A DNA stretch of 64,000 nucleotides from a virus. Lineage: Duplodnaviria; Heunggongvirae; Uroviricota; Caudoviricetes. The translations under genes and the position numbers were made by a program. Where the stretch lies: positions 1 to 64,000 of IMG/VR virus record IMGVR_UViG_3300025659_000002. One strand, given 5' to 3'. Position 1 is the first letter of the stretch; each line of letters starts with the position of its first letter. Below are positions 1 through 12,765 of this stretch, piece by piece. The notes beneath the pieces are model-generated. The model saw only the letters and a program-made list of their open reading frames with translations. It did not search any database and was not told where the DNA came from.

Positions 1-277
1 TCAGAGAGTCATACGCATACCCTTTTAAAAAGTCCCTATACACGGGAGTGAAATAATAACATTTCTTTTTTAAAAAAGTTGCTTCTGAATCAGTTAACCG
101 TAGTGATCCCATTGCGTTAATATTGCTTATCAATTTTGTAGCAAACGAGTCACTAAACTCAACTGGAGTTCTCAATATCCACTTGTATTCTACTTCCAGG
201 TTTGGAAATTGCTGACAAACAAACATTTGTTGTGTAAATTTATATATGTCGTTATCTAAAATTGAATTAATTAACAT
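1..277 (-). CDS. nicotinate phosphoribosyltransferase-like (PncB N-terminal part); 3' end truncated by window edge
   Basis: Minus-strand ORF not in the track, starting at ATG (rev-comp of 275-277) and running off coordinate 1 with no stop. N-terminus MLINSILDNDIYKFTQQMFVCQQF resembles the PncB N-terminal LLDTDxYKLxMxQ motif (from memory). Confidence 0.4.
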   Translation of the reverse strand, partial: MLINSILDNDIYKFTQQMFVCQQFPNLEVEYKWILRTPVEFSDSFATKLISNINAMGSLRLTDSEATFLKKKCYYFTPVYRDFLKGYAYDSL

Positions 278-570
278 TATTTGGTATCCTTTCCAGAGTG
301 TATTGTACGTAATACGGTTAGGCTGGAAGAACCGTCAACCACCTCTATTATACAACGCTCGATAGCATAGTCTTTCAATAAAAAGTGTCTTTCTGCTATC
401 TTTCTCCAACCGTAGTTATCGTATCCTTGAACGTCTATTTTAGTGGGACTAACTTTAGTTATTGCCCACCTACGTTGTGTCCAGTATGACGGAATGTGGT
501 CTTCGCCAGTACTAGCTCGTACCGTTATAACGTCATCTACTTTTAATTTAAACATCTGTTTCCTCTCCAT
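277..570 (-). CDS. hypothetical protein (97 aa)
   Basis: ORF track; TAA stop; co-directional with tightly packed neighbours (TAATG overlap with downstream gene). Confidence 0.45.
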   Translation of the reverse strand: MERKQMFKLKVDDVITVRASTGEDHIPSYWTQRRWAITKVSPTKIDVQGYDNYGWRKIAERHFLLKDYAIERCIIEVVDGSSSLTVLRTIHSGKDTK

Positions 571-736
571 TAAGTTTATCGAGTTTTCTACAAATTTGTA
601 ATAGAAGTATATCTGTAAGGGTTAGTCTGCCATTTCCAAATTTGGTTTCCAAAATAAGTTGTAAATCCTCATCTATGGTAGCTTCTAAAGGTAGTATAAC
701 CTCACTCATTAATAAACCTTCTCGAGTATTTCCCAA
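548..736 (-). CDS. hypothetical protein (62 aa)
   Basis: ORF track; fills gap in minus-strand operon; TAA stop. Confidence 0.35.
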   Translation of the reverse strand: MGNTREGLLMSEVILPLEATIDEDLQLILETKFGNGRLTLTDILLLQICRKLDKLNGEETDV

Positions 737-1044
737 CGTGCCTCGGGAATATTAATTACTTGAACTATTTCGCCATTGACAAAAAAAGTTAGTTTGTTGT
801 CACCTATTGACACACGATCCGCTAAGTATTCTTTGTCATATTTAATATTATAAGCTTTGTCATAAACTGTAAGAGTATAGGTAGTTCTAGAATCATTTCC
901 ATAACCTAATTCTGTTTTCGTACCATTCGCATCTATAACACCAGAATTAAAAAGCTTTGGTATTGCCACTGAGCCTATAATCCCTGCAATTACTAGAACA
1001 ATAATTAGTTCTATTATTGTAAATCCTTTTTTACTTCCATTCAT
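709..1044 (-). CDS. prepilin-type N-terminal domain protein (type IV pilin/pseudopilin-like)
   Basis: N-terminus MNGSKKGFTIIELIIVLVIAGIIG is the class-III signal / N-methylation motif (K-G-F-T-[LI]-I-E plus hydrophobic helix) of type IV pilins and ComGC-like pseudopilins. Confidence 0.55.
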   Translation of the reverse strand: MNGSKKGFTIIELIIVLVIAGIIGSVAIPKLFNSGVIDANGTKTELGYGNDSRTTYTLTVYDKAYNIKYDKEYLADRVSIGDNKLTFFVNGEIVQVINIPEARWEILEKVY

Positions 1045-1492
1045 TTTCTTTTAGTTCCTTTCTTACTTTCATTAATGCTTTTCCTAAAAGGTTTGTACCT
1101 TTACCATTTTTTCCGATGCCCCATATTGCGTCGTTCCATTCAGCCGCGTCTTCTATTAATTCTGCATCTTGTGTACATAGTAAAATCTTTTTGTAAAGAT
1201 CTATTTTGAATTTTTCTCTTAAGCACATAACCATAATGTCATATTTTACTTCTTCCCAATCTGGGCGAAGATTTACTTTATTACCCGCACGTTTAGATTT
1301 GCCAGGGGTTTTTAACTGTGCTATTTCTTTACGTATTGTGTTATTAAATGTTTTATGTGCTTGAAACGCATGCTCTACTGTTGGATATTCAATACCTTCT
1401 ATAGTAATAGGGGAATGTGCAAAATTAGAAAAATATTGATCATAGCCTGATGGCTTCTTTGCGGAGAAAATTATTTGGTTTGTGTTTTTCAT
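1031..1492 (-). CDS. NADAR / YbiA-like (DUF1768) domain protein
   Basis: YDQYFSNFAHSPITIEGIEYPTVEHAFQAHK matches the conserved NADAR core (SNF...G..Y.S.EH.fQa.K). Confidence 0.6.
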   Translation of the reverse strand: MKNTNQIIFSAKKPSGYDQYFSNFAHSPITIEGIEYPTVEHAFQAHKTFNNTIRKEIAQLKTPGKSKRAGNKVNLRPDWEEVKYDIMVMCLREKFKIDLYKKILLCTQDAELIEDAAEWNDAIWGIGKNGKGTNLLGKALMKVRKELKENEWK

Positions 1493-1523
1493 TTGTTAGT
1501 TTGATTTTTATTATTTAAAAGTG

Positions 1524-1606
1524 TGGGCAGAGAAGGATTCGAACCTCCGAACCCCGTAGGGACCAGATCTACAATCTGGCGCTTTTGACCGCTCGGCCAG
1601 CTGCCC
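1524..1606 (-). tRNA. tRNA-Tyr (anticodon GTA), type II with long variable arm
   Basis: Rev-comp reads GGGCAGCTGGCCGAGCGG...CCAGA-TTGTAGA-TCTGG...GGTTCGAATCC...CTGCCCA. Anticodon loop TTGTAGA; D-arm CCGAGCGG like tRNA-Tyr. Confidence 0.7.
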
Positions 1607-1613
1607 AACTTAA

Positions 1614-2321
1614 TTATCGTTCTCTTCCATGGTAGTCGTTCGGATATAAATCTTCTGATAAGTCTGATTGCCAGTACTCATGCGTATTTACATCCATGAT
1701 AGTAAGTTTTCCTTCCCAACCTGATCCGGTGTCTAACATCCATAGATTGGAAATATTTAAAGGTTTATCCGTTCCAAACATTCCTGTAGTTGTATGCCCA
1801 ACGAATACCTCTTTATAATCTTTAAATTCACGCTTTTGAGTTACGTAAATTTTTGCCACTTCAATGATGTGACGATTCCAATACAAATTATACGGATCCT
1901 GATCCCGGATAGGGACCTTTTGATCGAATCCTCCGTGTACGTAGATTTTGTTCTCATCATCGATGTGGTAAAATACTGTTTTGTTACGTAGATAATGTAG
2001 GTGCTTAGTTCTCCATTCTAGTGGGGCTGACACGTAGCTGGCAATTGTAGCCATACCACCTTGTCTAGTCCACAATGAGGGAGTTTGTCCATATTCTAAC
2101 CACCCAAGTAGCCATACGTCGTGATTACCTATAACCTATATTAAATTCTTAATCTTTAAAAGTTCTTCGAAACACTTTGCCGTATCTGGCCACCCGTCAT
2201 TTATATCGCCAAGAAAGACTAATGTATCCTCCTCATAATTGAAGTTAGAACGTTCGAAACATTGGAGCATGCCCTGGTAATTACCATGTACGTCTCCCAG
2301 TACAAATATTTTATTTTTCAT
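1614..2321 (-). CDS. calcineurin-like metallophosphatase (lambda Ser/Thr phosphatase-like), interrupted by one in-frame TAG at 2136-2138
   Basis: ORFs 2136..2321 (GDVHGN, GDINDGW motifs) and 1614..2075 (HGGF, GHT) are in the same frame. The 20 codons between them translate VIGNHDVW (the GNHD motif), so a single TAG splits an otherwise intact gene. Confidence 0.55.
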
Positions 2322-2557
2322 CCTTCATCCTTTGTAATGTGGTTTATACAGGCAGCTATTCTACTATCCTGGTAAAATGGATCCATTGCTGTAGCTCTAA
2401 TCTCTTCTGCTACTTCCGGATAAAGTATATAAAGTGCATTAAAAATACATTGCCCACGTCTCCAGAGGGGGTTGTTTAGTCCCATTTTATTTGTTGTTTG
2501 AAAGAGGGTTTTCATTTCCTCTTGAGTTAATTTATTCATTACCAACGTCTCCCGCAC
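2318..2557 (-). CDS. hypothetical protein (79 aa)
   Basis: ORF track; ends in TGA that overlaps the downstream ATG (ATGA), so TGA acts as a stop here. Confidence 0.45.
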   Translation of the reverse strand: MRETLVMNKLTQEEMKTLFQTTNKMGLNNPLWRRGQCIFNALYILYPEVAEEIRATAMDPFYQDSRIAACINHITKDEG

Positions 2558-2724
2558 TCACACTCCCAGCGTCCTTTATAAACTTTGGTTGCTAATAGTC
2601 CGCAACTATGGCATGTCATTTTTGGGGCTATACGGGTATTTATTCCGAATAGTACTCCTTTTAAAAAGGTGTCAATTACTTGGAAAAGCCCGGTAGTAAT
2701 TTTATCTTTAGTTTCTTGTTTCAT
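2539..2724 (-). CDS. small zinc-ribbon protein (start trimmed to MKQETKD)
   Basis: ORF track 2539..2787; the upstream part overlaps a tRNA-like element, so the internal ATG at about 2724 was chosen. CHSCG...CECG motif. Confidence 0.35.
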   Translation of the reverse strand: MKQETKDKITTGLFQVIDTFLKGVLFGINTRIAPKMTCHSCGLLATKVYKGRWECECGRRW

Positions 2725-2746
2725 AATTATTTCTCTTTTTTTTCTG

Positions 2747-2819
2747 TAGCACGAGTGGGCGTCGAACCCACCTTCCCAGGTTTCCAAAACCCAAGAGCCT
2801 CGCCCCCGGTCACCGCACT
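2747..2819 (-). tRNA. tRNA-like element with atypical D/anticodon arms (possible pseudo-tRNA)
   Basis: Rev-comp has acceptor AGTGCGG/TCGTGCT (7 bp with G-U pairs) and T-arm GTGGG-TTCGACG-CCCAC. The only hairpin in the middle is GGTTT-TGG-AAACC, a 3-nt loop; no 7-nt anticodon loop could be drawn. Confidence 0.35.
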
Positions 2820-2831
2820 AAACCTATTTAG

Positions 2832-3068
2832 CTACCTAACTTTCCTAGCTACCGCTATTATTTCATGTACAAATACATCTCCCAATTCATAGCTGCCATA
2901 AGTATAGGGAGACTTAACTCCGCAAAACCATCTAGCGCCTTCTTTGTTATCATCTATTTGCCATTTTTTTAAAACTTTCCATTCCCAAGACTGATCTAAA
3001 GTTCTCCATATTTCATATGGGTTGTCAAGAGGTCTGGTCTTTCCACATAAATTCTTCTGTCTTGTCAT
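2832..3068 (-). CDS. hypothetical protein (start trimmed to MTRQKNL)
   Basis: ORF track 2832..3152; the N-terminal 28 codons are the reverse complement of tRNA-Glu, so the internal ATG was used. Confidence 0.4.
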   Translation of the reverse strand: MTRQKNLCGKTRPLDNPYEIWRTLDQSWEWKVLKKWQIDDNKEGARWFCGVKSPYTYGSYELGDVFVHEIIAVARKVR

Positions 3069-3094
3069 TTTATTTTTCTGGTTTGTTACCTTCG

Positions 3095-3166
3095 TAGCGC
3101 ATAGGAGAATCGAACTCCTGTACCCAGACTGAAAACCTGGTGTCCTAGCCATTAGACGAATGCGCC
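3095..3166 (-). tRNA. tRNA-Glu (anticodon TTC) candidate
   Basis: GGCGCAT-TC-GTCTAATGGCTAGGAC-A-CCAGG-TTTTCAG-TCTGG-GTAC-AGGAG-TTCGATT-CTCCT-ATGCGCT-A; cloverleaf closes with G-U pairs. Confidence 0.5.
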
Positions 3167-3178
3167 GTTATTAATGAG

Positions 3179-3252
3179 TGGAGAAGAGGGGATTTGAACC
3201 CCTGACCCTCTGCGTGCAAAGCAGTTGCTCTCCCAGACTGAGCTACAACCCC
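3179..3252 (-). tRNA. tRNA-Ala (anticodon TGC) candidate
   Basis: GGGGTTG-TA-GCTCAGTCTGGGAGAGC-A-ACTGC-TTTGCAC-GCAGA-GGGTC-AGGGG-TTCAAAT-CCCCT-CTTCTCC-A. G3:U70 present; two acceptor-stem mismatches in my hand fold. Confidence 0.5.
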
Positions 3253-3258
3253 ATTAAT

Positions 3259-3495
3259 TTATTCTGTTTGTTCTGTTGCTTGTTTTTCTTCTTCTGCCAT
3301 GACTACTTCTGATTCGGCCCATGAAAGTATTAAAAGATACCACACGATTCCACAAATGGCATAACAAGCTAGTCCATATGTTTTTGCCCATCCGGCTTTC
3401 TTTGTATACTTTGGCATTAGCGACATTACTAGGAACATAGTTCCAAGCCCAAATATAATTCCCACTGGTATGAGAAGTACTATAATTCCCATCAT
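3259..3495 (-). CDS. small membrane protein (78 aa, two TM helices)
   Basis: ORF track; hydrophobic stretches; TAA stop. Confidence 0.45.
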   Translation of the reverse strand: MMGIIVLLIPVGIIFGLGTMFLVMSLMPKYTKKAGWAKTYGLACYAICGIVWYLLILSWAESEVVMAEEEKQATEQTE

Positions 3496-3520
3496 AACGT
3501 TGTCCTTTCTTTTTATTTCG

Positions 3521-3593
3521 CAGAGCGCACGGGGATCGAACCCGCAGTCTCCGGCGTGACAGGCCGGCGTGTTACCATTAACACTTCCACCCT
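3521..3593 (-). tRNA. tRNA-Asp (anticodon GTC)
   Basis: AGGGTGG-AA-GTGTTAATGGTAACAC-G-CCGGC-CTGTCAC-GCCGG-AGACT-GCGGG-TTCGATC-CCCGT-GCGCTCT-G. The CUGUCAC loop is classic tRNA-Asp. Confidence 0.65.
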
Positions 3594-3602
3594 ATAAATT
3601 AG

Positions 3603-3674
3603 AGCCTAGGGAAGGAGTTGAACCTCCATTTCTCTTAGCGGACTAAGAGCGTCTTACCATTAGACGACCACGGC
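3603..3674 (-). tRNA. tRNA-like element with 8-nt (or self-pairing) anticodon loop, anticodon region AGTCCGCT
   Basis: GCCGTGG-TC-GTCTAATGGTAAGAC-G-CTCTT-AGTCCGCT-AAGAG-AAAT-GGAGG-TTCAACT-CCTTC-CCTAGGC-T. The anticodon arm is an 18-nt perfect palindrome (7-bp stem plus 4-nt loop, or 5-bp stem plus 8-nt loop). Two acceptor-stem mismatches. Confidence 0.35.
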
Positions 3675-3676
3675 GT

Positions 3677-3749
3677 TGGTTGGGGGTGTGGGATTTGAAC
3701 CCACATTCGCCTGCCTCTGCAGACGTCCTTTACGTTGGATGAGCCCCCA
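3677..3749 (-). tRNA. tRNA-like element with encoded 3' CCA and shortened anticodon loop
   Basis: TGGGGGC...GTGGG-TTCAAAT-CCCAC-ACCCCCA-A-CCA. The middle hairpin GTCTG-CAGAGG-CAGGC has a 4-6 nt loop, not a 7-nt anticodon loop. Confidence 0.35.
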
Positions 3750-3786
3750 TTAATTTTTTCTCTCTATGTCAAAAAACTAGAATCTT

Positions 3787-4026
3787 CTATAGAAGGTTCT
3801 TTTGTTTTAAAATACGATTTACATGTAGTTTTGTAATTACAGGCTGTTTATTTTGACTAGCCATATGTAACGCAATTTTAACCTCTTTACCTTTGTGCCC
3901 TGGTTTGCTTGTTGCAAATTTTACAATTCGTCTTGCTATGTTCATTTCCCGTGTTTCACGCCCCAGGTATCGTTGGCATTTTATTTTGTCTCTACCCTGT
4001 TTGTTAGAGTTTGATTTTTGTGACAT
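3787..4026 (-). CDS. basic small protein (79 aa)
   Basis: ORF track; K/R-rich; lies between tRNA genes. Confidence 0.4.
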   Translation of the reverse strand: MSQKSNSNKQGRDKIKCQRYLGRETREMNIARRIVKFATSKPGHKGKEVKIALHMASQNKQPVITKLHVNRILKQKNLL

Positions 4027-4035
4027 TAGCTTTCC

Positions 4036-4431
4036 TTATTTTTTAAATCTTTTTTCCAATTGTTTATAAAGCTCAAAATCGTCTTTTTCTTTCTTATTCT
4101 TCCGTCTTGTCGCGTTTCGCTTTCTAGTTATTTCAGATTTTTTTGCTCTATCTTTTAATACATTCGTTCTAATAGTAAATTCCTCATCCGTCTCTTTTCG
4201 ACTCACGCTAACCTCTAATTCGTCGAGCTCTATCCTATCGTCCCACGAGTTGAACTGGCTACAAACTGCGGTAAACCTCACATCTGGGTTGTCTACCCCT
4301 GTCTGTTGTCTAGAAAGAGCTATGATGTGCCTTAGTACCTCTTGTACGTCTTCAAGTTTTCCTTCTAGATCATCATAATCATACGGGTGTGCTATTATTA
4401 TTTTAACTGTTTTCTTTTCATAACTTGCCAT
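4036..4431 (-). CDS. hypothetical protein (131 aa), acidic core with basic C-terminus
   Basis: ORF track; TAA stop. Confidence 0.5.
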   Translation of the reverse strand: MASYEKKTVKIIIAHPYDYDDLEGKLEDVQEVLRHIIALSRQQTGVDNPDVRFTAVCSQFNSWDDRIELDELEVSVSRKETDEEFTIRTNVLKDRAKKSEITRKRNATRRKNKKEKDDFELYKQLEKRFKK

Positions 4432-4453
4432 TGTTTTTTATTGGTTTTATTTG

Positions 4454-4524
4454 AGCAACTAGAGAGAATCGAACTCTCATCGTCTGAGTGGAAGTCAGAA
4501 GTCTTACCGTTGGACCATAGCCGC
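4454..4524 (-). tRNA. tRNA-Gly (anticodon TCC)
   Basis: GCGGCTA-TG-GTCCAACGGTAAGAC-T-TCTGA-CTTCCAC-TCAGA-CGAT-GAGAG-TTCGATT-CTCTC-TAGTTGC-T; all stems pair. Confidence 0.7.
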
Positions 4525-4773
4525 TTTAATTGGTAAAGCTGTGACAATTTCATTAGTTTTCTTATCATATACTACTTTGTATCTAATGCTATTTTGCTCA
4601 ATAATCATAACTAACCTGTGTCCTACTTTTTCTAGAACGCTTACTCCTTGGTCGTTATACTCGTTCCTAATTCTATTCAATAATTCTTTTCTTAGCTTTT
4701 TGGTCAACGTAATATCATAACGCTCTTCAAATCTTTTTACAGCGTGTTGTCGTTGATTGTGTTTATAACTCAT
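4504..4773 (-). CDS. hypothetical protein (start trimmed to MSYKHNQ)
   Basis: ORF track 4504..4851; upstream codons overlap tRNA-Gly(GCC), so the internal ATG was used. The last 6 codons overlap the 5' end of tRNA-Gly(TCC). Confidence 0.4.
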   Translation of the reverse strand: MSYKHNQRQHAVKRFEERYDITLTKKLRKELLNRIRNEYNDQGVSVLEKVGHRLVMIIEQNSIRYKVVYDKKTNEIVTALPIKAAMVQR

Positions 4774-4794
4774 GTTGCCCTTTCTATTTATTTG

Positions 4795-4865
4795 AGCAGC
4801 TAGACGGATTTGAACCGACATTCCAACCATGGCAAGGTTGTGTCCTACCATTAGACGATAGCCGC
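4795..4865 (-). tRNA. tRNA-Gly (anticodon GCC)
   Basis: GCGGCTA-TC-GTCTAATGGTAGGAC-A-CAACC-TTGCCAT-GGTTG-GAAT-GTCGG-TTCAAAT-CCGTC-TAGCTGC-T. Confidence 0.7.
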
Positions 4866-4866
4866 A

Positions 4867-5544
4867 TTACCAAGAAACTTTTCTTATTTTTAATAGAAAA
4901 TCATTTACTAATTTTGAGTTAGCTTCTTTTTTTGTAGACTTATTAAACGCGTCTTCTAGTTTTTCTTCCCAAGAGCTACAAGTTTTTATAACCTCTGGTA
5001 TAGTAGATTCGCCTTCCTTATATTTTCTGCAAAGAATGCCTACTTCTGTATCAGCTATTCTGGCTGTAAAATCGCCAGTTTGTAATAGTTCGTATCCATT
5101 ATATAACATTCTTAACCAGGCCGCTGATGATTTTCTTTTTCTAATGGTATCTAATTCTACATTTCCATTACTAAGGGCTTCATCATTTTCTAAAAGCTTT
5201 TTGCGTTGCGATTGAGCATAACCCCTGTACGAGTGGAAAACTAATTTAGAACTCCAAACGTCTGGAAATAGACTTCTTAACTCTTCACACCAGTTCTCGT
5301 TTTCTGTAGTAAATGTCGCTTTAAAAGTTTCCAGAATTGTAGGATTACTTCTTAATGCGAAATGTAGAAATCTAGCTAATTCCCAGGTATCTGCTGGATC
5401 CTTTGGATCGCTGGGCTGGTGCTCTGGTAAAGCTAAAATATTTGAAGTAGTCTCAATAAATACAGTTTTATAATCGAAATCACTTATAGGAGTATCTAAC
5501 CCATGCAATCTACTTCCTACTAACGCTCTCATTAATAATCTCAT
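4867..5544 (-). CDS. nucleotidyltransferase (Pol-beta superfamily, GS...SD[FI]D motif)
   Basis: N-terminal GSRLHGLDTPISDFDYK matches the minimal nucleotidyltransferase G[SG]x(9-13)Dh[DE] signature. Confidence 0.5.
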   Translation of the reverse strand: MRLLMRALVGSRLHGLDTPISDFDYKTVFIETTSNILALPEHQPSDPKDPADTWELARFLHFALRSNPTILETFKATFTTENENWCEELRSLFPDVWSSKLVFHSYRGYAQSQRKKLLENDEALSNGNVELDTIRKRKSSAAWLRMLYNGYELLQTGDFTARIADTEVGILCRKYKEGESTIPEVIKTCSSWEEKLEDAFNKSTKKEANSKLVNDFLLKIRKVSW

Positions 5545-5578
5545 TTATAATTCCCTATTGTTAATAATTGTTAAAAAA

Positions 5579-5612
5579 AAGACCCAGCGAGTGATCGCCG
5601 GGCCTAATTTCA
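5579..5612 (-). terminator. rho-independent terminator candidate
   Basis: On minus strand: GGCCCGGCGATCACTCGCTGGGTC hairpin followed by TTTTTTTT, immediately downstream of the Hsp20 gene. Confidence 0.45.
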
Positions 5613-5669
5613 AAGATATAAAGCGGTTAAGCTTTATAATGTCTTTTATTGACGATCTACATAGAAGCG

Positions 5670-6056
5670 CTAGCCTTCGCTAACTGTGAACTCCTGTGGA
5701 GTGAATTTCCCTTTTACAGGTATGGCGATGGTTAAAACACCACGAACTAGCGAACTAGTTAATTTTCCATAATTAAAATGTTCACCGTTCTGTAATGGAA
5801 ATTCGTTATAGAAACCTTTACAGAAAGTTCCTTTACCAATCTCTTTATCCGGTCCAGCTGTCACTAACAGGCGGTCATGAGTTGAAGGCGAATTGCCGAA
5901 CGCAGTTCCAGCCTTAGCTATTCTAATTTTAATGTTAGAAGCCTGATAACCTGGTACTAATAGCTCAACCATTACGTTTGGCTCGTTCCAGTACAGTACG
6001 AAGTCTACTGCATCATATTTTTTATCGTCACTTAATTTTGAGTATAAATTGCTCAT
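5670..6056 (-). CDS. small heat-shock protein (Hsp20 / alpha-crystallin family)
   Basis: 128 aa; C-terminal GVLTIAIPVKG is the sHSP I-x-I box; alpha-crystallin-like beta-strand region. Confidence 0.6.
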   Translation of the reverse strand: MSNLYSKLSDDKKYDAVDFVLYWNEPNVMVELLVPGYQASNIKIRIAKAGTAFGNSPSTHDRLLVTAGPDKEIGKGTFCKGFYNEFPLQNGEHFNYGKLTSSLVRGVLTIAIPVKGKFTPQEFTVSEG

Positions 6057-6068
6057 TTGTTGTCTTGA

Positions 6069-7760
6069 TTATTTCATTTTTAGTTGATACATCCGATTCA
6101 TTTCATAGAACCGAACAATATTGCCCTCGTGGGCCAGTGTCATCGACGACTTGATGGCAGAGTCTTTGTAGACCTGCACATCACTTGAAGCCTTAGCGCG
6201 AAACATTTCTAAAGCGCCATCTTCATGTATACTTATAGTTAATCCGTTAGGTAGGCAGATAAAATTCAACATATTATCTGCGTCCTTCAAGATTCTTATA
6301 TCATATTTTTTGAAATTTTCATCGAATACGATAATAAATTTATCATACTTGCTGCCTGATTGTCCTATTATCATACAAACCCTGTCTCGGCATTTTGCAT
6401 CAATTATCTTGTACTTATCTAGTTCAGGAATTGCTACAATTGCACATTTGTTGGGTGCGTATGGTAAATATAAATGAGTTTTACCTAAAATACTAGAACA
6501 TAATACTCCATCTAACATTTCTGTAGAATTATTGAATATTTCCCAAGTATTTAAAATATAAAACGTAGGCTTTGAGCCGGTATCTAATACATCTATTTCA
6601 AAAAATCTATCCTTGTTTACGCCATATAGCCTATTTTCGTATATCATAGTTTTTTCAACCTTAATATTTGTACTATGATAAGGAGATTGGCTATCTTCCA
6701 ATGATCTGTATACTAAAGATTCATCCTTAGTTTTCACAAGAAACGTCTTTTGAGACATACTGTGTGAAAAAACCTTGGAGGTGGTATCTTTAATATAACT
6801 ATTATTGTTATATATGACAACATCTTTTTTGGTATATATTATATACTGTCTACCAAAATAAGTGCAGTCAATTATGTCGCCAGGATAATCGTTTAATTGT
6901 TGTATTGTAAAATATTTGCTTCCGGTGTGTGTTGTTATTATAGGAGTTATTGGAAGTATAATGTACTGCCCTTTCATGTCTGGAGGAGTACTTCTATAAC
7001 CATTTTCAAATACTTCTTTAAACCAATCATAATAACTCTTAGGTATATTTGTAAAGTCCCTTACTGCGCCCGGAACACGCGTTTCAGGGTTAAAGATTGA
7101 TACGTTTGCTCTCATACGTTCTTCTAATGTAGCTCGTTTAAAGTGAGAATTCTTTCCCTTATATGGGTGAATTCCTATAAACAGTTGACAAGCTATTACA
7201 GCGAAGGAAAACCAATCTGAAATTTCTGTGAATTCTGTAGCATGCCAATCTCTAATAGAGGGCATAATTACTGTAGCTGGATAATTAGGAGTTTGCCATG
7301 AGTTTACATCTATACAATAAGCAGTAGTATGCTTTCTAGTTTCTATTAAATAATTTAATTCGTTACCATCGACCATTATTATGTCATGATCGTGCACATG
7401 ACTAATTGTATCCTTAATATTTGTAACTAATTTAGTAACGGTATCGTTATTTAAATTGTTTCTATTAAGATACGCAGATGTAAACATTCTTGGTAATGGA
7501 ATAGACTGAGGTACAGTCTGCATCATAAATCCTATTAACGTGTTTTTTGTAGTGTAAATTAAATTCTCAGGTTTTATAATGGTATTCTTAGTAAGAACTG
7601 ACAGTTCCCTAATTTTTTCTTCAGGTATCATAGTTTTTGGGTCATGAAATATTTTATAAGCTCTTCCACCTTTTACATATACTTTACCCTCTCCACCTTG
7701 AGCTACAAAATTAGAGTCTAATAATGATACTTGCCCCTTTCCTTGTACTAAAACCTTCAT
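6069..7760 (-). CDS. protein kinase-like protein (TerY-P triad kinase candidate)
   Basis: 563 aa. N-terminal AQGGEGKVYVKGGRAYK resembles a glycine-rich ATP loop with following Lys; HDHDIIMVDGNELN is catalytic-loop-like. ATGA overlap with the upstream PP2C gene. Confidence 0.45.
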   Translation of the reverse strand: MKVLVQGKGQVSLLDSNFVAQGGEGKVYVKGGRAYKIFHDPKTMIPEEKIRELSVLTKNTIIKPENLIYTTKNTLIGFMMQTVPQSIPLPRMFTSAYLNRNNLNNDTVTKLVTNIKDTISHVHDHDIIMVDGNELNYLIETRKHTTAYCIDVNSWQTPNYPATVIMPSIRDWHATEFTEISDWFSFAVIACQLFIGIHPYKGKNSHFKRATLEERMRANVSIFNPETRVPGAVRDFTNIPKSYYDWFKEVFENGYRSTPPDMKGQYIILPITPIITTHTGSKYFTIQQLNDYPGDIIDCTYFGRQYIIYTKKDVVIYNNNSYIKDTTSKVFSHSMSQKTFLVKTKDESLVYRSLEDSQSPYHSTNIKVEKTMIYENRLYGVNKDRFFEIDVLDTGSKPTFYILNTWEIFNNSTEMLDGVLCSSILGKTHLYLPYAPNKCAIVAIPELDKYKIIDAKCRDRVCMIIGQSGSKYDKFIIVFDENFKKYDIRILKDADNMLNFICLPNGLTISIHEDGALEMFRAKASSDVQVYKDSAIKSSMTLAHEGNIVRFYEMNRMYQLKMK

Positions 7761-8536
7761 AATATTATTCCAGCAATTCCAATATCGTCTGCGTTAGTAA
7801 TATAATTTCTATTCCAGGTTTTCTTAAGAAACCTTAGTTTTCTTACAGCGAATGCTCCTGCGGCACTTGGGAAATGAGTGATGATATCATCAATCACTAC
7901 TCTCTCTCCAGTATCCCTATCTATTACTTGGTCTATACCATCAGTAGTTAAAATTACCGAAGCTATCGGGTAATCAGGCTGAAATATAAAGGGCATTCCA
8001 GTTTCTAATGCTACATTGGTAGGATCCTCGTCACCATCATTCATGTGAACAACTGTTTGTCCTTTGTCCTTTAAACACTCTTTGTATTCTTCCTGATCTT
8101 TTCGAGTAATGTTATACGCAGGATAGTATGGAGTATTATGAGGTGATTGAATATCTATATGAAGCGGTCCTTCTTTTGAATCTAAGAAACAATGTCCATC
8201 TCCGGCCATAAGAATATAAAAGCTTTGTTTTTCTTTATTATAGATAGCTACCAACACAGTTGACAGCAGCATACGGCGGTCCAGGCCTTGGACATCAGTA
8301 TAACCTTTACATAATTGAAGTTGCCACTCTAATTTTTGACGAGTCAGCTCTCCAAATTCTCTAATGGCTTGTTCTACACTATGGGCTATTAATCTAGCTC
8401 CAAAATCTGTGTGAGGAGCGCTTGAACACCCATCACATACAATAATATAAGCTATCTCATCTGTTTCCCCATGAAGTGTATAATCTTCACAAACCCGATG
8501 AGTGGCCCCTTGAATAAAATGTGAATCTATGTTCAT
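7757..8536 (-). CDS. PP2C-family Ser/Thr phosphatase
   Basis: IVCDGCSS, LMAGDGH, LTTDGI metal-binding Asp/Gly motifs; 259 aa. TGA stop overlaps the kinase ATG. Confidence 0.6.
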   Translation of the reverse strand: MNIDSHFIQGATHRVCEDYTLHGETDEIAYIIVCDGCSSAPHTDFGARLIAHSVEQAIREFGELTRQKLEWQLQLCKGYTDVQGLDRRMLLSTVLVAIYNKEKQSFYILMAGDGHCFLDSKEGPLHIDIQSPHNTPYYPAYNITRKDQEEYKECLKDKGQTVVHMNDGDEDPTNVALETGMPFIFQPDYPIASVILTTDGIDQVIDRDTGERVVIDDIITHFPSAAGAFAVRKLRFLKKTWNRNYITNADDIGIAGIIL

Positions 8537-8565
8537 AGTTTTCCTTTTAATAAGAACGAACGTAA

Positions 8566-8633
8566 CAGCGCGGATTGGATTCGAACCAATGTCTAGGGTA
8601 TCCCCTAACTCTACCCTGCTGAGATACCGCCCC
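8566..8633 (-). tRNA. tRNA-like element (68 nt) with truncated anticodon arm
   Basis: GGGGCGG-TA-TCTCAGCAGGGTAGAG...ATTGG-TTCGAAT-CCAAT-CCGCGCT-G. The anticodon position holds TAGGG-GATA-CCCTA (4-nt loop). Lies between the vWA and PP2C genes. Confidence 0.35.
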
Positions 8634-8664
8634 GTTACGCCGTTTCTTACGTACGTTTTGTAAG

Positions 8665-9429
8665 TTAGAATTTCATACTAGCTTGAGCAGAAGGTCCGCC
8701 AGTGCCAAGTGAATGGCTCTGTGAACTAATGCTTTGGCTAATGAAATTCCCTAATTTTGCAAGAGTTTTAGCATTTGCATTGCCCGCATCAATATATTGC
8801 GTGAGGTCTGCATCATCTTTAAACTCTTTTAATAGTTGTGAAACCCTAGAGCCCCAACCATGGTTGCCGTCTGTGCCTATCCCGATTAATACGGAAATTA
8901 AAGATTCAATTGATTCTTCGGCACGTTTAATGGAGTGTATTCTGTCCTTTACATTAGTGGCTGTCATAGTCGAAGAATTATCATCTCCGTCTGTAATAAC
9001 ATACACGGCAGCATTTACACTGTATTCCTGGTCCGCTAGGGATTTACCATACTGTTCAATTGATCCGATCATATCATAAGTGGCATCAAACAGGTTAGTA
9101 GCTGCGTCAGGTACTAATTTCCCTGAATACTCACTTAAATCTATATCGTTTACAGGCTTAAATCCATGGATTTCCAAAATATCAGTCTGACTATTAAACA
9201 GTGTTACCCTAACAAGTAGATTTTCAGAACGTGCAGACATTTTACATGCCCCCACTATTTCTTCAATCATCTTTTGTAACATAGTTTCATAACCGCCCAC
9301 TGATCCGGTAATGTCAACGACTATACCTACTAAGGTATATTCGGAGGCTTCTAGTTCATCTAAGCCTATTGCTGAAAACTTAAAATTTCCAGCTCCTAAT
9401 AAGTCCACACTTTGCATGGTATCTACCAT
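8665..9429 (-). CDS. von Willebrand factor A domain protein (TerY-like)
   Basis: VVDITGSVGG MIDAS-like DxTGS motif; 254 aa; first gene of the vWA-PP2C-kinase triad. Confidence 0.6.
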   Translation of the reverse strand: MVDTMQSVDLLGAGNFKFSAIGLDELEASEYTLVGIVVDITGSVGGYETMLQKMIEEIVGACKMSARSENLLVRVTLFNSQTDILEIHGFKPVNDIDLSEYSGKLVPDAATNLFDATYDMIGSIEQYGKSLADQEYSVNAAVYVITDGDDNSSTMTATNVKDRIHSIKRAEESIESLISVLIGIGTDGNHGWGSRVSQLLKEFKDDADLTQYIDAGNANAKTLAKLGNFISQSISSQSHSLGTGGPSAQASMKF

Positions 9430-9459
9430 TGATAATCTCCTTTATCTTTGTGTGTTTGT

Positions 9460-10323
9460 TTATTTCAAAAAGTCTTCAGCTTTACAGATCTGCATACCGC
9501 GTGAAACCATTTCCGTTACAAAGTCGGTACCCAATTTCTCAAACCCAGTAACATTTGAAGAAGTGTCTTCAAGCAGTACTAGTTTTTTGATATTCTCTTC
9601 TCCGAAGTTGTCTGCAATATCTTTAACTGTATTAGCTACACAGTGTGATAGAGCCTGACCTGAAAGGGCAATTATGTCTGCGTCTTTTAAAAGTTTTAAA
9701 AGAGTGACGTTTAACTGCGTAGTAGGATCTTCATCGTCAGGTACATCAGCAATAACGCCAGAGTAATGTTCTGTCCAAGGGTTGTGTCCTTTTGTAACAT
9801 AGTTTATTCTGCGTTTTCTGCTTTCTTCCCAGGCTTCAAGTTCTGCGTTTACAACATCTACTACATTGTGGCCCCATGTGCCCACTTTACAATGTGGTGG
9901 CCATATACACAGAAGGTATCTGTCGTTGTCTTGGAGAGCTTGCAGGTAAGCTCTGGCTCTTGGAATTCGATCTGGGCTAGTCGGTGTCCAAACTGATCCG
10001 TTTAAGTCGTCTAGACTTATAAGTGTAAACGGGCCCGGATGTTCTCCAGCACTATTCATCCAAAATAATGGATGCGAAATATCCAACAATTGGTGGGTAT
10101 CTAGCGTCACGTGGATCCCAGTAATTTTACCTCTTAAGCGGTTAAGCACCATAGCTAACCTCTCAGAGTCCTCATAAGCCCCCGGTACCGGTAATTCTGG
10201 TTCTGGAAGTCGTAATCCTATATCCGCCAAATTTATGCCGGCTTTTTGAAGTAAGACTAAATCATTGTTTCGATCCATAAAAGAGTTTTGTGGATCAATT
10301 ATTAAGAAGTGCAATTTTTGCAT
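9460..10323 (-). CDS. isochorismatase-family amidohydrolase, nicotinamidase (PncA)-like
   Basis: LIIDPQNSF (catalytic Asp region), WPPHCKVGTWGH, and SGQALSHCV (nucleophile Cys) are typical of PncA/Pnc1-type nicotinamidases. Confidence 0.6.
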   Translation of the reverse strand: MQKLHFLIIDPQNSFMDRNNDLVLLQKAGINLADIGLRLPEPELPVPGAYEDSERLAMVLNRLRGKITGIHVTLDTHQLLDISHPLFWMNSAGEHPGPFTLISLDDLNGSVWTPTSPDRIPRARAYLQALQDNDRYLLCIWPPHCKVGTWGHNVVDVVNAELEAWEESRKRRINYVTKGHNPWTEHYSGVIADVPDDEDPTTQLNVTLLKLLKDADIIALSGQALSHCVANTVKDIADNFGEENIKKLVLLEDTSSNVTGFEKLGTDFVTEMVSRGMQICKAEDFLK

Positions 10324-10377
10324 TTTGTTTTTTTTCCTTTTCTAACTTGTATGTTATTATTTCGTCAGTTTATTAAT

Positions 10378-11292
10378 TTAGAAGTTTCCGTAGTTTACTT
10401 GGAAACATTGTAGACCTAAGTCTTTACGCCATAGACCAACTACTTGGTCTCTATCATCAAACACGCAAAATACGTTGTATTTATCTTTAACGTGTTCATC
10501 ATAAAGTTTGCGTTTAAGAATTGAATCTCTTATATTATGCTCAAACAATGGTCTCATGAACATCTTCCAATGAGGAAACGGAAGGTTTGCTTTCAAAAAC
10601 TGTCTAGTTTCTGAAAGGTATTTTTCCGATCTTCCAGATAAAAAGATTATTTGGTATCCCTGTTTGTCCATAACGTGAAGAATTTCCCCCAAAATCGCAT
10701 TGTAAGTATCGTTCTCACAAGTAGAGGCGTCATAAGGGTTACGGCCTTTAAGGAATGCCATCGTGCCGTCTAAGTCACAAATGATTGCCTTAGGTAAGCC
10801 GTCTACCAACTCAACCGTGCCTGGAGGCTCAGGATAGTCGTGAGGCTCATCTTTCTTTAGAAACCTACTGTACATATCATAAATAACTTTAGAGCCTACA
10901 TGGGCCGATCCTGTACGTAATGCGTCTCGATCAATGGCATCAAATACATCTGTAGGGAATTCTCTAACCACAACTAATACGTCGTGCTTAACTTCCCGTA
11001 AAATGTTATAGTCCGCCACTATTTTTCTAATATGCTCCTCATTTGAGCTGTGTAAGTTTGTATCATCTACGAATACTGATCTTCCGGCATCTAAGTATCT
11101 AAAGATTAAAGAGTCTCTAATTGCTTTAATTATTTTCTCATTTCCTTTAGAGTATACTCCACCATCAACCATGCTTCGTAGACTATCCCTATTTACACGT
11201 TTGTATGTATCTGGCATTTTATCCATCATATCTACGGCATACGAAGTCTTACCGCTTGCGGGTAACCCCCGTAGTATTATTACTTGTCTCAT
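10378..11292 (-). CDS. pnk: polynucleotide 5'-kinase / 3'-phosphatase (T4 Pnk-like)
   Basis: N-terminal P-loop GLPASGKTS plus C-terminal HAD motif I CDLDGTM; same two-domain architecture as T4 Pnk. Confidence 0.7.
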   Translation of the reverse strand: MRQVIILRGLPASGKTSYAVDMMDKMPDTYKRVNRDSLRSMVDGGVYSKGNEKIIKAIRDSLIFRYLDAGRSVFVDDTNLHSSNEEHIRKIVADYNILREVKHDVLVVVREFPTDVFDAIDRDALRTGSAHVGSKVIYDMYSRFLKKDEPHDYPEPPGTVELVDGLPKAIICDLDGTMAFLKGRNPYDASTCENDTYNAILGEILHVMDKQGYQIIFLSGRSEKYLSETRQFLKANLPFPHWKMFMRPLFEHNIRDSILKRKLYDEHVKDKYNVFCVFDDRDQVVGLWRKDLGLQCFQVNYGNF

Positions 11293-11700: not shown

Positions 11701-12765
11701 TTATTCTCCAAACTTAATTAAGAAGTCAGGGTTAATTACTTTAAAACTAAAGCTACCATCTCTCGCTCTAATCACAATTCCCTCTCTTGGGATATCAGGA
11801 TTTAGAAGGCTTGGGCCTTTAGAAAGCTCTACTAATTCGTCTACTGTATGGTTTAACACCATCTTTGGATTAAGGACAGGTACAGTATTAAATATTCTAT
11901 CTAACCCTCGTACGCGAACTTCCCCCTCAGTTGTGTAGTCCCCAAATATAAGATTTAGAAAGCTCTCAATACTTCCAAAGCCACCATCTTGTATAGTAAA
12001 AGCGTTAAACATTTTTACTTCTGTAGCAGACAATTTGTATTTATTTTTCTGAATCCCTGGCCCCAGTAATTCTCCTTGGAAAATTACATTTATACCAAGT
12101 TTAGACATTTTCTCTTCTGCGTCAATATCTCTAGCGACTTTCCAGAAAGAATTTTTGTCATTCTCTATTAGGTCAAGCTTCCGACTGCATACTCCGAAAG
12201 GTGTTGCTTTTCGGTAGTTAGGTGCATAATAAAAGGTAGATGACGATCCATCTAATTTCTCTGTTATGTAGCACTCTGTTCCTGCCCATTCTTTTATTTC
12301 ATCTACAAGATTCTGTACACGTTCTTCATCCGTCTTAGGAATCCAGGAAGGTCTGTGGCCTTTAATCTGGCCACTTAAGCATGCTGGAATGGGTGCTTCA
12401 TATTTTACTACTTTCAAAAGTTCACTTACGTCTGTTCCCACTTCGGGGCCATCGGCGAGCTCTTCGAAAGTATCTAATGGCATGGCTAGCCCTTGACTAA
12501 TTTGCTTACGCAATTTTATAGTTCGTAAGCGATAACCTCTTGTGCCGTCATCTATTGTTTTGACACCGTTTTTCTTTAAGAATTCAAACGGCTCTATTTC
12601 TGGCAACAAAGAGTCCACTTCAAAGTAGACGCATTTATCACCTATTTGAAATTCCCCCTTCTTAACTACTAGATGCCAGCCTTTTACAGTTGCTTTTTCA
12701 ATTACATCTGCTCCAGAGATAGGCTCTAAATTAGCTATGAGTTGGATTGTTGCTAAATGTCTCAT
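11701..12765 (-). CDS. ATP-dependent RNA ligase (KxDG nucleotidyltransferase family)
   Basis: ITEKLDGSSSTFYY contains the ligase motif I K-x-D-G; 354 aa; adjacent to Pnk. Confidence 0.55.
   Translation of the reverse strand: MRHLATIQLIANLEPISGADVIEKATVKGWHLVVKKGEFQIGDKCVYFEVDSLLPEIEPFEFLKKNGVKTIDDGTRGYRLRTIKLRKQISQGLAMPLDTFEELADGPEVGTDVSELLKVVKYEAPIPACLSGQIKGHRPSWIPKTDEERVQNLVDEIKEWAGTECYITEKLDGSSSTFYYAPNYRKATPFGVCSRKLDLIENDKNSFWKVARDIDAEEKMSKLGINVIFQGELLGPGIQKNKYKLSATEVKMFNAFTIQDGGFGSIESFLNLIFGDYTTEGEVRVRGLDRIFNTVPVLNPKMVLNHTVDELVELSKGPSLLNPDIPREGIVIRARDGSFSFKVINPDFLIKFGE

What the first reader, a model, noticed from the sequence alone, without database searches (positions are those of the whole stretch)
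1..10323. NAD+/ADP-ribose theme: PncB fragment, PncA-like nicotinamidase and a NADAR domain protein
The N-terminus of a nicotinate phosphoribosyltransferase (1-277, truncated by the window), a PncA/Pnc1-like amidohydrolase (9460-10323, HCV nucleophile) and a NADAR/YbiA protein (1031-1492) co-occur. PncA plus PncB would allow Preiss-Handler NAD+ regeneration, and NADAR proteins are known to remove ADP-ribose from nucleic acids. Together they look like a counter-measure to NAD+-depleting or ADP-ribosylating defences.
Basis: partly seen in the sequence, partly recalled or inferred. Interest (0 to 1): 0.6.

Follow-up and report, generated by a model that had tools for sequence, protein, structure and literature searches.

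The report
Phage NAD+ salvage with kinase-linked nicotinamidase
A giant marine phage carries its own four-enzyme route for rebuilding the cofactor NAD+ from nicotinamide; such routes are already known in big phages, but here the first enzyme is an unusual long form that sits in one operon with a kinase, a phosphatase and a vWA protein.

Summary
Window 2-277(-) is the start of a true pncB. Near-identical marine contigs extend the window leftwards and give the full 381-aa PncB, followed by NadE, a Nudix hydrolase and a NadD-like adenylyltransferase. With the 287-aa protein this completes a Preiss-Handler set.

The 287-aa protein (9460-10323) matches no Pfam, NCBIfam, PHROG or PADLOC model. Even so, a profile search, an AlphaFold model and invariant residues (D10/K178/C228 plus metal ligands) place it among nicotinamidases.

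All four genes occur in 68 of 80 viral loci. In other jumbo phages pncB, nadE and nadD lie beside or inside this module. In bacteria the same enzyme sits between Sir2 and PP2C-NrtR.

The NADAR protein is closest to E. coli YbiA, not to the DNA de-ADP-ribosylating NADARs, and is rarely linked to these genes elsewhere.

Phage Preiss-Handler clusters and their possible counter-defence role were published in 2024. The new element is the long nicotinamidase tied to a TerY-P-like phospho-switch. The counter-defence role is untested.

The parts
2..277 (-). 5' part (92 codons) of pncB, nicotinate phosphoribosyltransferase; the rest lies left of the window
   Evidence: Pfam NAPRTase_N 3.2e-17. The full 381-aa gene in near-identical contigs L007-L012 passes NCBIfam NF003704 and TIGR01514 cutoffs.
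277..570 (-). 97-aa ORF of unknown function; its stop overlaps the pncB start (TAATG)
   Evidence: No Pfam or PHROG hit. Membership in the system rests on position only.
1031..1492 (-). NADAR-domain protein, YbiA-like (153 aa)
   Evidence: Pfam NADAR 3.3e-30. TIGR02464 104 bits against a cutoff of 73.7. Closest PDB sequence is E. coli YbiA, 1.5e-23. E40 and K47 have the same 7-residue spacing as T4 AdfN E36/K43 (direct reading plus PMC11825919).
9460..10323 (-). Long-form nicotinamidase-like cysteine hydrolase (287 aa), first gene of the module
   Evidence: Invariant D10/K178/C228, D75/H77/H84/H144 and F15/W141. Profile against PDB gives nicotinamidases. AF2 pLDDT 91.9, and the top 10 Foldseek PDB hits are all nicotinamidases. 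Gene context.
8665..9429 (-). vWA-domain protein (254 aa) with an intact MIDAS motif, TerY/YegL-type
   Evidence: 46% identical to the gene that follows the bacterial homologue. AF2 pLDDT 90.8, and top Foldseek hits are integrin I / vWA domains. D39, S43, T111 and D147 are invariant. Sources label homologues YegL, and some carry PF00092.
8566..8633 (-). tRNA-like element in the vWA-PP2C intergenic gap, with a 4-nt loop in place of the anticodon loop
   Evidence: Rfam tRNA 37.6 bits against gathering score 29. ARAGORN did not call it. Not a conserved part of the module elsewhere: tRNAs lie inside it in only 2 of 80 loci.
7757..8536 (-). PP2C-type protein phosphatase (259 aa)
   Evidence: Pfam PP2C_2 5.3e-13, 49.4 bits against a cutoff of 24. 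Present in 70 of 80 viral loci and 50 of 80 genome loci.
6069..7760 (-). Ser/Thr-kinase-like protein (563 aa): conserved N-terminal kinase domain, variable C-terminal ~300 aa; its start overlaps the PP2C stop
   Evidence: Pfam Pkinase 2.2e-4, below cutoff. The GGEG loop, K36, D130...N135 and D151 are at least 95% conserved in 64 non-redundant homologues. Present in 71 of 80 viral loci.
5670..6056 (-). 128-aa Hsp20-like ORF 12 nt after the kinase gene; possibly the last gene of the transcription unit
   Evidence: Pfam HSP20 at only E 0.085. Not conserved in related loci. Membership is doubtful.
5580..5605 (-). Terminator-like hairpin (11 pairs, 7 G-C) followed by a T run
   Evidence: This is a consensus scan only, and the count of such sites is no higher than in shuffled sequence.

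Best explanation
The left end of the window is part of the NAD+ island of a jumbo marine phage. The phage encodes a complete deamidating (Preiss-Handler type) nicotinamide salvage route. A long-form nicotinamidase (9460-10323) would convert nicotinamide to nicotinate. PncB (2-277 and leftwards) would make NaMN. A NadD-like adenylyltransferase would make NaAD, and NadE would amidate it to NAD+. A Nudix hydrolase and a YbiA-like NADAR act as accessories. Gene identities are shown; the flux is inferred. The nicotinamidase is not a free-standing gene. It heads a conserved operon with a MIDAS-bearing vWA protein, a PP2C phosphatase and a Ser/Thr kinase, which together resemble a TerY-P triad. I infer that this triad switches or scaffolds the first step of salvage by phosphorylation. 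The pathway would keep NAD+ up during infection, which includes refilling it from the nicotinamide that host NADase defences release.
For: Enzyme identities: PncB, NadE, NadD-like and Nudix lie on contigs 99.9-99.99% identical to the window. Nicotinamidase assignment: the invariant triad, metal ligands and pyridine-pocket residues; profile hits to PDB nicotinamidases; a model of pLDDT 91.9 whose 10 best PDB neighbours are all nicotinamidases. Context in viruses: of 80 loci, 75 have vWA, 70 PP2C and 71 kinase. All four genes occur in 68 loci and in the same order in 65. Unbiased ORF clustering ranks NadE (21 loci), PncB (15) and NadD (11) as the commonest non-module neighbours, and 29 of 80 loci have at least one NAD gene. 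Some arrays are interleaved, for example IsoC-vWA-PncB-NadE-PP2C-NadD-kinase in L038, L076 and L091. Displacement: next to phage pncB, 46 of 80 loci have a short canonical PF00857 PncA, 9 have the long form, and none has both. Bacteria: in Competibacteraceae-type loci the order is Sir2, then divergently IsoC, PP2C and NrtR. The kinase catalytic residues are conserved and the vWA MIDAS is intact.
Against: There is no biochemical evidence for any step. The 287-aa protein fails every curated family model on its own, and it carries about 80 extra residues that could change its substrate, for example to NMN, NR or another pyridine amide. In this phage the module lies about 9 kb from pncB, with tRNA and RNA-repair genes between them. 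Only 15 of 80 viral loci have pncB within 10 kb, and only 2 of 80 genome loci. The NadD-like and Nudix proteins score below NCBIfam cutoffs. Nothing shows what the kinase or PP2C acts on. The counter-defence role of this route has never been tested: NARP1-3 use other chemistry. The loci compared are related to one another, so the counts are not independent.
Confidence: 0.6

Rival explanations
1. Same pathway, different purpose. The NAD+ genes are ordinary auxiliary metabolic genes that supply the phage's own NAD+-consuming or nucleotide-handling enzymes in slow-growing marine hosts, and are not aimed at NADase defences.
For: pncB-nadE clusters are common in viral contigs: 434 stretches encode PncB relatives, and NadE lies within 10 kb in 58 of the best 80. 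The 2024 survey of NAD-jumbo phages lists many NAD+-consuming phage enzymes (PMC11662467). The island sits among RNA-repair and tRNA genes rather than known anti-defence genes.
Against: A route that starts from nicotinamide, the product of NADase effectors, is exactly what NARP2 exploits. The two purposes do not exclude each other. No NAD+-dependent phage enzyme was identified in the window.
Confidence: 0.3
2. The nicotinamidase-like, vWA, PP2C and kinase genes form a self-contained TerY-P-like signalling or exclusion system. Its hydrolase acts on some other amide or serves as a sensor, and its nearness to NAD genes is secondary.
For: The module is far more constant (68 of 80 loci with all four genes) than its link to pncB (15 of 80). 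TerY-P triads act as stand-alone anti-phage systems and as partners of restriction systems (PMC10542128). The long form has conserved extra segments that canonical PncA lacks. No curated model recognises it.
Against: The nicotinamidase-specific metal site and pyridine pocket are invariant. NAD genes are the top-ranked neighbours and are interleaved with module genes. The long form replaces short PncA next to pncB. Bacterial neighbours are Sir2 and NrtR. PADLOC gave no hit for the vWA or kinase protein and only a weak PDC-M21C hit for the PP2C.
Confidence: 0.12
3. The three genes the reader grouped are merely neighbours in a large accessory region, with no shared function. In particular, the NADAR protein works on something unrelated, such as riboflavin-pathway intermediates, as YbiA does.
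For: The NADAR is about 42% identical to YbiA. It lies within 10 kb of the module in 6 of 80 loci and of pncB in 2 of 80. About 9 kb of unrelated genes separate pncB from the PncA-like gene.
Against: For PncA-like plus PncB, the comparative evidence for linkage is strong. NADAR domains were first named for their association with NAD and ADP-ribose genes (from my own knowledge), and here the gene lies 0.75 kb from pncB.
Confidence: 0.05

Closest known systems
Preiss-Handler clusters of 'NAD-jumbo phages' (Microbiome 2024, PMC11662467; e.g. Kuafu_71 pncB-nadD-nadE)
   Same: A jumbo phage that clusters pncB, nadD-like and nadE genes. The same proposed benefit: autonomous NAD+ synthesis and possible counter-defence.
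   Different: That paper does not mention a kinase or a phosphatase. Here the nicotinamidase is a long subfamily embedded in a vWA-PP2C-kinase operon.
NARP2 (Nampt + Nmnat), NARP1 (Adps + Namat) and NARP3 (PnuC + NadR): experimentally shown phage NAD+ reconstitution pathways
   Same: They rebuild NAD+ from breakdown products or precursors. NARP2 also starts from nicotinamide.
   Different: The chemistry differs: four steps through nicotinate, NaMN and NaAD, with an amidation by NadE. The phosphoribosyltransferase is PncB-type, not NadV. This route has not been tested against any defence system.
Canonical nicotinamidases PncA/Pnc1 (PF00857; PDB 2h0r, 3pl1, 2wt9, 1im5)
   Same: The fold, the Asp-Lys-Cys triad, the Asp/His metal site, and the Phe/Trp pocket with the WPxHC motif.
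   Different: About 265-290 aa instead of 180-216, with conserved insertions (roughly residues 16-45 and 85-135). Only 16-18% identity. Below Pfam detection for the window protein. Almost always followed by vWA or PP2C genes.
TerY-P triad (TerY/YegL vWA + PP2C + Ser/Thr kinase; Anantharaman et al. 2012, Gao et al. 2020, as summarised in PMC10542128)
   Same: The same three domain types in one co-directional operon. The vWA protein is of the YegL/TerY type.
   Different: No PADLOC hit for the vWA or kinase protein, and only a weak PDC-M21C hit for the PP2C. The kinase C-terminus is a variable ~300-aa region rather than a recognised zinc ribbon or OB fold. A nicotinamidase-like gene always precedes the triad. 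It is carried by phages and is linked to NAD genes rather than to DNA-processing genes.
NADAR proteins: E. coli YbiA (riboflavin-intermediate N-glycosidase) versus DarG1 and phage AdfN (DNA ADP-ribosylglycohydrolases, PMC11825919)
   Same: The NADAR fold and the conserved Glu and Lys, seven residues apart.
   Different: By sequence the window protein belongs with YbiA (1.5e-23) rather than with the NADAR-domain structure 8bau (2.9e-7). PMC11825919 reports finding almost no YbiA-like NADARs in phages.
NrtR-controlled NAD salvage operons of bacteria
   Same: In Competibacteraceae-type genomes the homologue is followed by PP2C and an NrtR (Nudix + NrtR_WHD) gene and preceded by Sir2.
   Different: The phage has no NrtR. 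Its Nudix protein lacks the winged-helix domain.

Membership tests
Nicotinamidase (PncA/Pnc1) within the isochorismatase-like superfamily | Isochorismatase-like alpha/beta fold | tested here: met
   AF2 model with pLDDT 91.9. The top 10 Foldseek PDB hits are all nicotinamidases (2wta 5.8e-13, TM 0.79 normalised by target).
Nicotinamidase (PncA/Pnc1) within the isochorismatase-like superfamily | Catalytic triad Asp-Lys-Cys | tested here: met
   D10, K178 and C228 are invariant in 23 sequences, including three huge-phage homologues. They align with Pnc1 D8, K122 and C167.
Nicotinamidase (PncA/Pnc1) within the isochorismatase-like superfamily | Metal site (Asp-x-His plus the His of WPxHC) and an aromatic pocket for the pyridine ring | tested here: met
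   D75, H77, H144, F15 and W141 are invariant and align with Pnc1 D51, H53 and H94. H84 is also invariant. Its equivalence to M. tuberculosis H57 is my inference from spacing; the geometry in the model was not inspected.
Nicotinamidase (PncA/Pnc1) within the isochorismatase-like superfamily | Recognised by the curated family model (PF00857 or NCBIfam) | tested here: not met
   No Pfam hit at E up to 10 and no NCBIfam hit. Some homologues carry weak PF00857 hits.
Nicotinamidase (PncA/Pnc1) within the isochorismatase-like superfamily | Hydrolyses nicotinamide to nicotinate | not testable with these tools
   Contextual support only: pncB, nadE and nadD as neighbours, replacement of short PncA, and Sir2 and NrtR in bacteria.
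Nicotinate phosphoribosyltransferase PncB (type I) | Full-length match above the equivalog cutoff | tested here: met
   L010 3430-4575 scores 424 bits on NF003704 (cutoff 379) and 387.5 on TIGR01514 (cutoff 269.55). The window fragment is 99.97% identical at the DNA level over the overlap.
Complete Preiss-Handler pathway | PncB, NaMN adenylyltransferase and NAD synthetase all present | tested here: met
   NadE scores 223.7 bits on TIGR00552 (cutoff 63.65). The NadD-like protein has the GGSFDPPHLGH motif but reaches only 46-49 bits, below cutoffs, so the adenylyltransferase step is the weakest.
NADAR, DNA ADP-ribosylglycohydrolase branch (DarG1/AdfN) | NADAR domain with conserved Glu and Lys | tested here: met
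   Pfam NADAR 3.3e-30. E40 and K47 were read directly and compared with AdfN E36/K43.
NADAR, DNA ADP-ribosylglycohydrolase branch (DarG1/AdfN) | Belongs to a non-YbiA clade | tested here: not met
   Closest PDB sequence is YbiA at 1.5e-23, against 8bau at 2.9e-7. The NCBIfam anti-phage NADAR model scores 67.8 bits against a cutoff of 240. No tree was built.
TerY-P triad | vWA protein with MIDAS, PP2C phosphatase and Ser/Thr kinase in one operon | tested here: met
   vWA fold and MIDAS. PP2C_2 above cutoff. The kinase has conserved catalytic residues, although Pkinase scores below cutoff. Gaps of 128 nt and -4 nt, same strand.
TerY-P triad | Match to the defence-system models, or a kinase with a C-terminal zinc ribbon or OB fold | tested here: not met
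   PADLOC gave no hit for the vWA or kinase protein, and only a weak PDC-M21C hit for the PP2C. No Pfam domain was found in the kinase C-terminal half, and its fold was not modelled.
NARP2 | Nampt (NadV) plus NMN adenylyltransferase | tested here: not met
   The phosphoribosyltransferase is PncB-type, and NadE is present. No NadV-like gene was seen in the window or its extension. The rest of the genome was not examined.

The most novel reading that the evidence does not exclude
The vWA-PP2C-kinase triad is a phosphorylation switch that senses NAD+ collapse or the surge of its breakdown products, and then turns on or assembles a phage-encoded deamidating NAD+ reconstitution pathway. That would be a regulated fourth type of NARP. 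It would also give a first concrete metabolic function for TerY-P-like triads, in phages and, through the Sir2-IsoC-PP2C-NrtR arrays, in bacteria.
Probability: 0.2. Interest if true: 0.8.

Novelty: new variant of a known kind. Interest (0 to 1): 0.55.

Why it matters
NAD+ depletion is one of the most widespread anti-phage strategies. So far only three phage pathways have been shown to rebuild NAD+, and none goes through nicotinate. This locus offers a complete, compact candidate for a fourth, deamidating route, and it identifies the nicotinamidase that automatic annotation misses. More unusually, it ties NAD+ salvage to a Ser/Thr kinase, PP2C and vWA module. That link holds in dozens of jumbo phages and, in reduced form, in bacteria next to Sir2 and NrtR. 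The mechanism of TerY-P-type triads is still unknown, so a reproducible link to one enzyme with an easy assay makes that question testable.

Tried and rejected
Megablast of window 1-10400 against GenBank phages found nothing. An exact 50-mer from the window edge found nothing in IMG/VR; the extension came instead from an exact-protein look-up of the 97-aa ORF.

PADLOC and PHROGs gave nothing useful for the nicotinamidase-like or kinase proteins. Single-sequence PDB searches for the vWA protein and the kinase were empty. The vWA profile gave only a non-significant match to a calcium-channel vWA domain.

Domain fusions of the nicotinamidase-like family were examined as possible Rosetta stones. 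They are tandem duplications or eukaryote-like channel and cytochrome fusions, and none is fused to NAD or triad proteins.

The 2012 Ter-system paper could not be read, so I do not know whether it mentions an isochorismatase-like partner of TerY-P.

I considered that the 27-29% 'NadE' hits upstream of the module might be other PP-loop ATPases. Pfam shows they are NAD_synthase. I considered that the tRNA-like element inside the module might be a conserved feature. It is not.

Full report
WHAT THE WINDOW IS. In the first 28 kb almost all genes lie on the minus strand, and GC content is 33-41%. There are 12 tRNA genes. There is also an RNA-repair set: RlaP, PNKP, two RNA ligases and a Thg1-like gene. 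The vWA protein of the window is found, 100% identical, on contigs in 75 blocks of the collection. Twelve of those blocks hold contigs of 0.2-1 Mb, the longest listed being 211,738 bp. The only GenBank phage relatives of the nicotinamidase-like gene are three uncultured huge phages of 462-595 kb and a 6.5-kb contig from a human faecal sample. The window therefore comes from a marine jumbo phage.

CHECK OF THE OBSERVATION.
- PncB fragment. The ATG at 277-275 opens a frame that runs off the left edge. Its 92 codons match Pfam NAPRTase_N at 3.2e-17.
- NADAR. Window 1031-1492 matches Pfam NADAR at 3.3e-30 and TIGR02464 above its cutoff.
- PncA-like gene. Window 9460-10323 encodes 287 aa. It matches no Pfam model even at E 10, and nothing in NCBIfam, PHROGs or PADLOC.
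- PncA-like gene, sequence evidence. The best single-sequence PDB hit is yeast Pnc1 (E 0.0095). The family is large: 3288 database proteins and 2216 cluster representatives at 50% identity.
- PncA-like gene, conserved residues. In a 23-sequence alignment that includes three huge-phage homologues at 36-50% identity, the invariant residues include D10, K178, C228, D75, H77, H84, H144, F15 and W141.
- PncA-like gene, profile search. A profile of that alignment hits eight PDB sequences, seven of them nicotinamidases, with Pnc1 at 2.9e-13. The alignment places D10, D75, H77, H144, K178 and C228 on Pnc1 D8, D51, H53, H94, K122 and C167.
- PncA-like gene, structure. An AlphaFold model has pLDDT 91.9, and nicotinamidases fill its ten best Foldseek matches in the PDB.
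All three observations are confirmed.

EXTENDING THE CONTIG. An exact-protein look-up of the 97-aa ORF next to pncB returned six metagenomic contigs. They are 99.9-99.99% identical to the window over 3.1-10.6 kb and run up to 5.9 kb further left. They carry the following genes in order:
- a full 381-aa PncB, above the cutoffs of NF003704 and TIGR01514;
- a 118-aa ORF;
- a HAD_SAK_2 protein;
- a 53-aa ORF;
- a nucleoside-deoxyribosyltransferase-like protein;
- NadE, scoring 224 bits on TIGR00552 against a cutoff of 64;
- a 197-aa Nudix protein of the NudE/AdpP type, below cutoffs;
- a 178-aa NadD-like protein with GGSFDPPHLGH, below cutoffs;
- a DUF7831 protein.
Together with the nicotinamidase-like gene, this is a complete four-step route from nicotinamide to NAD+. 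No second isochorismatase-like ORF exists in the window or in the extension.

The nicotinamidase-like gene is followed, on the same strand, by three more genes.
- After a 30-nt gap comes a 254-aa protein. This is a vWA domain: pLDDT 90.8, best PDB matches integrin I and vWA domains, and MIDAS residues D39, S43, T111 and D147 invariant.
- After a 128-nt gap comes a PP2C phosphatase, PP2C_2 at 5.3e-13.
- With a 4-nt overlap comes a 563-aa kinase-like protein. Its glycine loop, K36, D130...N135 and D151 are at least 95% conserved in 64 non-redundant homologues. Its C-terminal half is variable.

In 80 IMG/VR loci that encode a relative of the nicotinamidase-like protein, 75 also have the vWA gene, 70 the PP2C and 71 the kinase. 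All four genes occur in 68 loci, always on one strand, and in the same order in 65. The median span is 5 kb. The three GenBank huge phages show the same order. This is the domain content of the TerY-P triad, and homologues of the vWA protein are labelled YegL. However, PADLOC gave no hit for the vWA or kinase protein, and only a weak PDC-M21C hit for the PP2C.

IS THE MODULE TIED TO NAD+? Three independent lines say yes.
- Unbiased neighbour ranking. All ORFs of the 80 viral loci were clustered without reference to function. After the module genes and their antisense shadow ORFs, the commonest families are NadE (21 loci, including glutamine-dependent forms), type I PncB (15), NadD (11), a metallophosphoesterase (10), Nudix (9) and a second NAPRTase-family protein (8). 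Identities were checked by Pfam, and 29 of 80 loci have at least one NAD gene.
- Interleaving. The NAD genes are often interleaved with module genes. L038, L040, L076 and L091 read IsoC-vWA-PncB-NadE-PP2C-NadD-kinase. L054 reads IsoC-vWA-PP2C-PncB-NadE-kinase. L062 reads PncB-NadE-IsoC-vWA-PP2C-kinase. Where the triad is absent, IsoC lies directly beside PncB or NadE (L034, L063).
- The reverse view. IMG/VR holds 434 stretches that encode PncB relatives. Among the best 80, NadE lies within 10 kb in 58. A short PF00857 PncA-like ORF of about 200-270 aa is present in 46 loci and the long form in 9. No locus has both. By my own hypergeometric estimate, zero overlap has a chance of about 2e-4, ignoring the relatedness of the loci. 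The long form therefore takes the place of canonical PncA.
- Cellular genomes. At least 597 genome stretches encode relatives. In the best 80, the gene is followed by PP2C in 50, vWA in 24 and a kinase in 12. In the Competibacteraceae-type loci the gene order is alpha/beta-hydrolase and Sir2 on one strand, then divergently IsoC, PP2C and NrtR. Sir2 is found in 30 loci and NrtR in 31. From established knowledge, Sir2 enzymes release nicotinamide, and NrtR is the ADP-ribose-responsive regulator of NAD salvage genes.

MECHANISM.
- Shown: the gene identities, the conserved catalytic residues and the conserved gene order.
- Inferred, pathway: the phage converts nicotinamide to nicotinate, NaMN, NaAD and finally NAD+.
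- Inferred, triad: the triad controls or scaffolds the entry step by phosphorylation. The grounds are that the nicotinamidase-like gene is the one constant partner of PP2C, vWA and kinase genes in both phages and bacteria.
- Inferred, benefit: maintenance of NAD+ during infection, including after host NADase defences fire.
That last idea was already proposed for jumbo phages (PMC11662467). The experimentally proven pathways NARP1, NARP2 and NARP3 use other enzymes. I found no paper on a phage nicotinamidase, or on a link between a nicotinamidase and a TerY-P-like triad. The 2012 Ter paper could not be read.

THE NADAR GENE. It is about 42% identical to E. coli YbiA by my count from the alignment (1.5e-23), against 2.9e-7 for a NADAR-domain structure, 8bau. 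It keeps a Glu and a Lys seven residues apart (E40 and K47), like the catalytic E36 and K43 of T4 AdfN. Johannesman et al. regard YbiA-like NADARs as housekeeping enzymes and found almost none in phages. In related loci a NADAR gene lies near the module in 6 of 80 and near pncB in 2 of 80. Its place in the theme therefore rests on adjacency in this one phage, and removal of ADP-ribose from nucleic acids is not the best-supported activity.

VERDICT. As a phage NAD+ synthesis island it is a known kind. The long nicotinamidase wired to a vWA-PP2C-kinase module, with NAD genes interleaved in other jumbo phages and a Sir2/NrtR context in bacteria, appears to be undescribed and can be tested. The counter-defence role remains a hypothesis.

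Noticed in passing
window 8566-8633 (-): A tRNA-like element lies in the gap between the vWA and PP2C genes. It scores 37.6 bits on Rfam tRNA (gathering score 29), but its anticodon arm ends in a 4-nt loop, so it has no anticodon. ARAGORN does not call it. tRNAs inside the module are rare in other phages (2 of 80 loci).
   Followed up: partly
window 3602-3674 (-): ARAGORN reports a 'tRNA-???' with a two-base anticodon (cc) inside the tRNA island 1523-4865. This may be a second abnormal tRNA-like gene.
   Followed up: no
window 1614-2075 and 2136-2321 (-): A calcineurin-like metallophosphoesterase appears split into a 61-aa N-terminal ORF (Metallophos 1.2e-6) and a 153-aa C-terminal ORF about 60 nt apart. 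All near-identical contigs (L007-L012) show the same split. It could be a frameshift, an intron or a true two-piece gene. A metallophosphoesterase is also a recurrent neighbour of the module (10 of 80 loci).
   Followed up: no
window 4867-5544, 10378-11292, 11701-12765, 13430-14503, 24818-25537 (-): An RNA-repair set surrounds the module and the tRNA island: an RlaP nucleotidyltransferase, PNKP (kinase + HAD phosphatase), a PHA02142-type RNA ligase, an Rnl1-like ligase and a Thg1-like 3'-5' polymerase.
   Followed up: partly
window 709-1044 (-): A 111-aa protein with a prepilin-type N-terminal methylation motif (N_methyl 8e-7) lies between the NADAR gene and pncB in a phage genome.
   Followed up: no
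P0150 (1629 aa) and P0176 (1452 aa), homologues found: Domains of the long nicotinamidase-like family occur in eukaryote-like architectures. One has ankyrin repeats, an ion-transport channel and two such domains. The other has DOMON, cytochrome b561 and one such domain. This recalls channels that carry NAD-metabolite-binding enzyme domains.
   Followed up: partly
L095 8248-12393 and about 30 similar genome loci (L094-L142): Competibacteraceae-type bacteria have a conserved array: alpha/beta-hydrolase and Sir2 on one strand, then divergently the long nicotinamidase-like gene, PP2C and NrtR. A PP2C inside an NrtR-linked NAD operon seems unusual.
   Followed up: partly
L049 9512-9937 and L058 13741-14106: Two viral loci carry only a 121-141-aa N-terminal fragment of PncB beside or inside the module. 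These may be pseudogenes or stand-alone NAPRTase_N domains.
   Followed up: no
window 19279-21164 (-): A pair of SPFH/band-7 (HflK/HflC-like) membrane proteins is encoded by the phage. This was judged from the sequences only.
   Followed up: no
window 26425-29574, 30451-32698, 40441-42138 and 45996-46421 (-): Several families of tandem paralogous genes of unknown function. One group shares C-terminal '...RQGLL' endings; another consists of 130-170-aa proteins.
   Followed up: no
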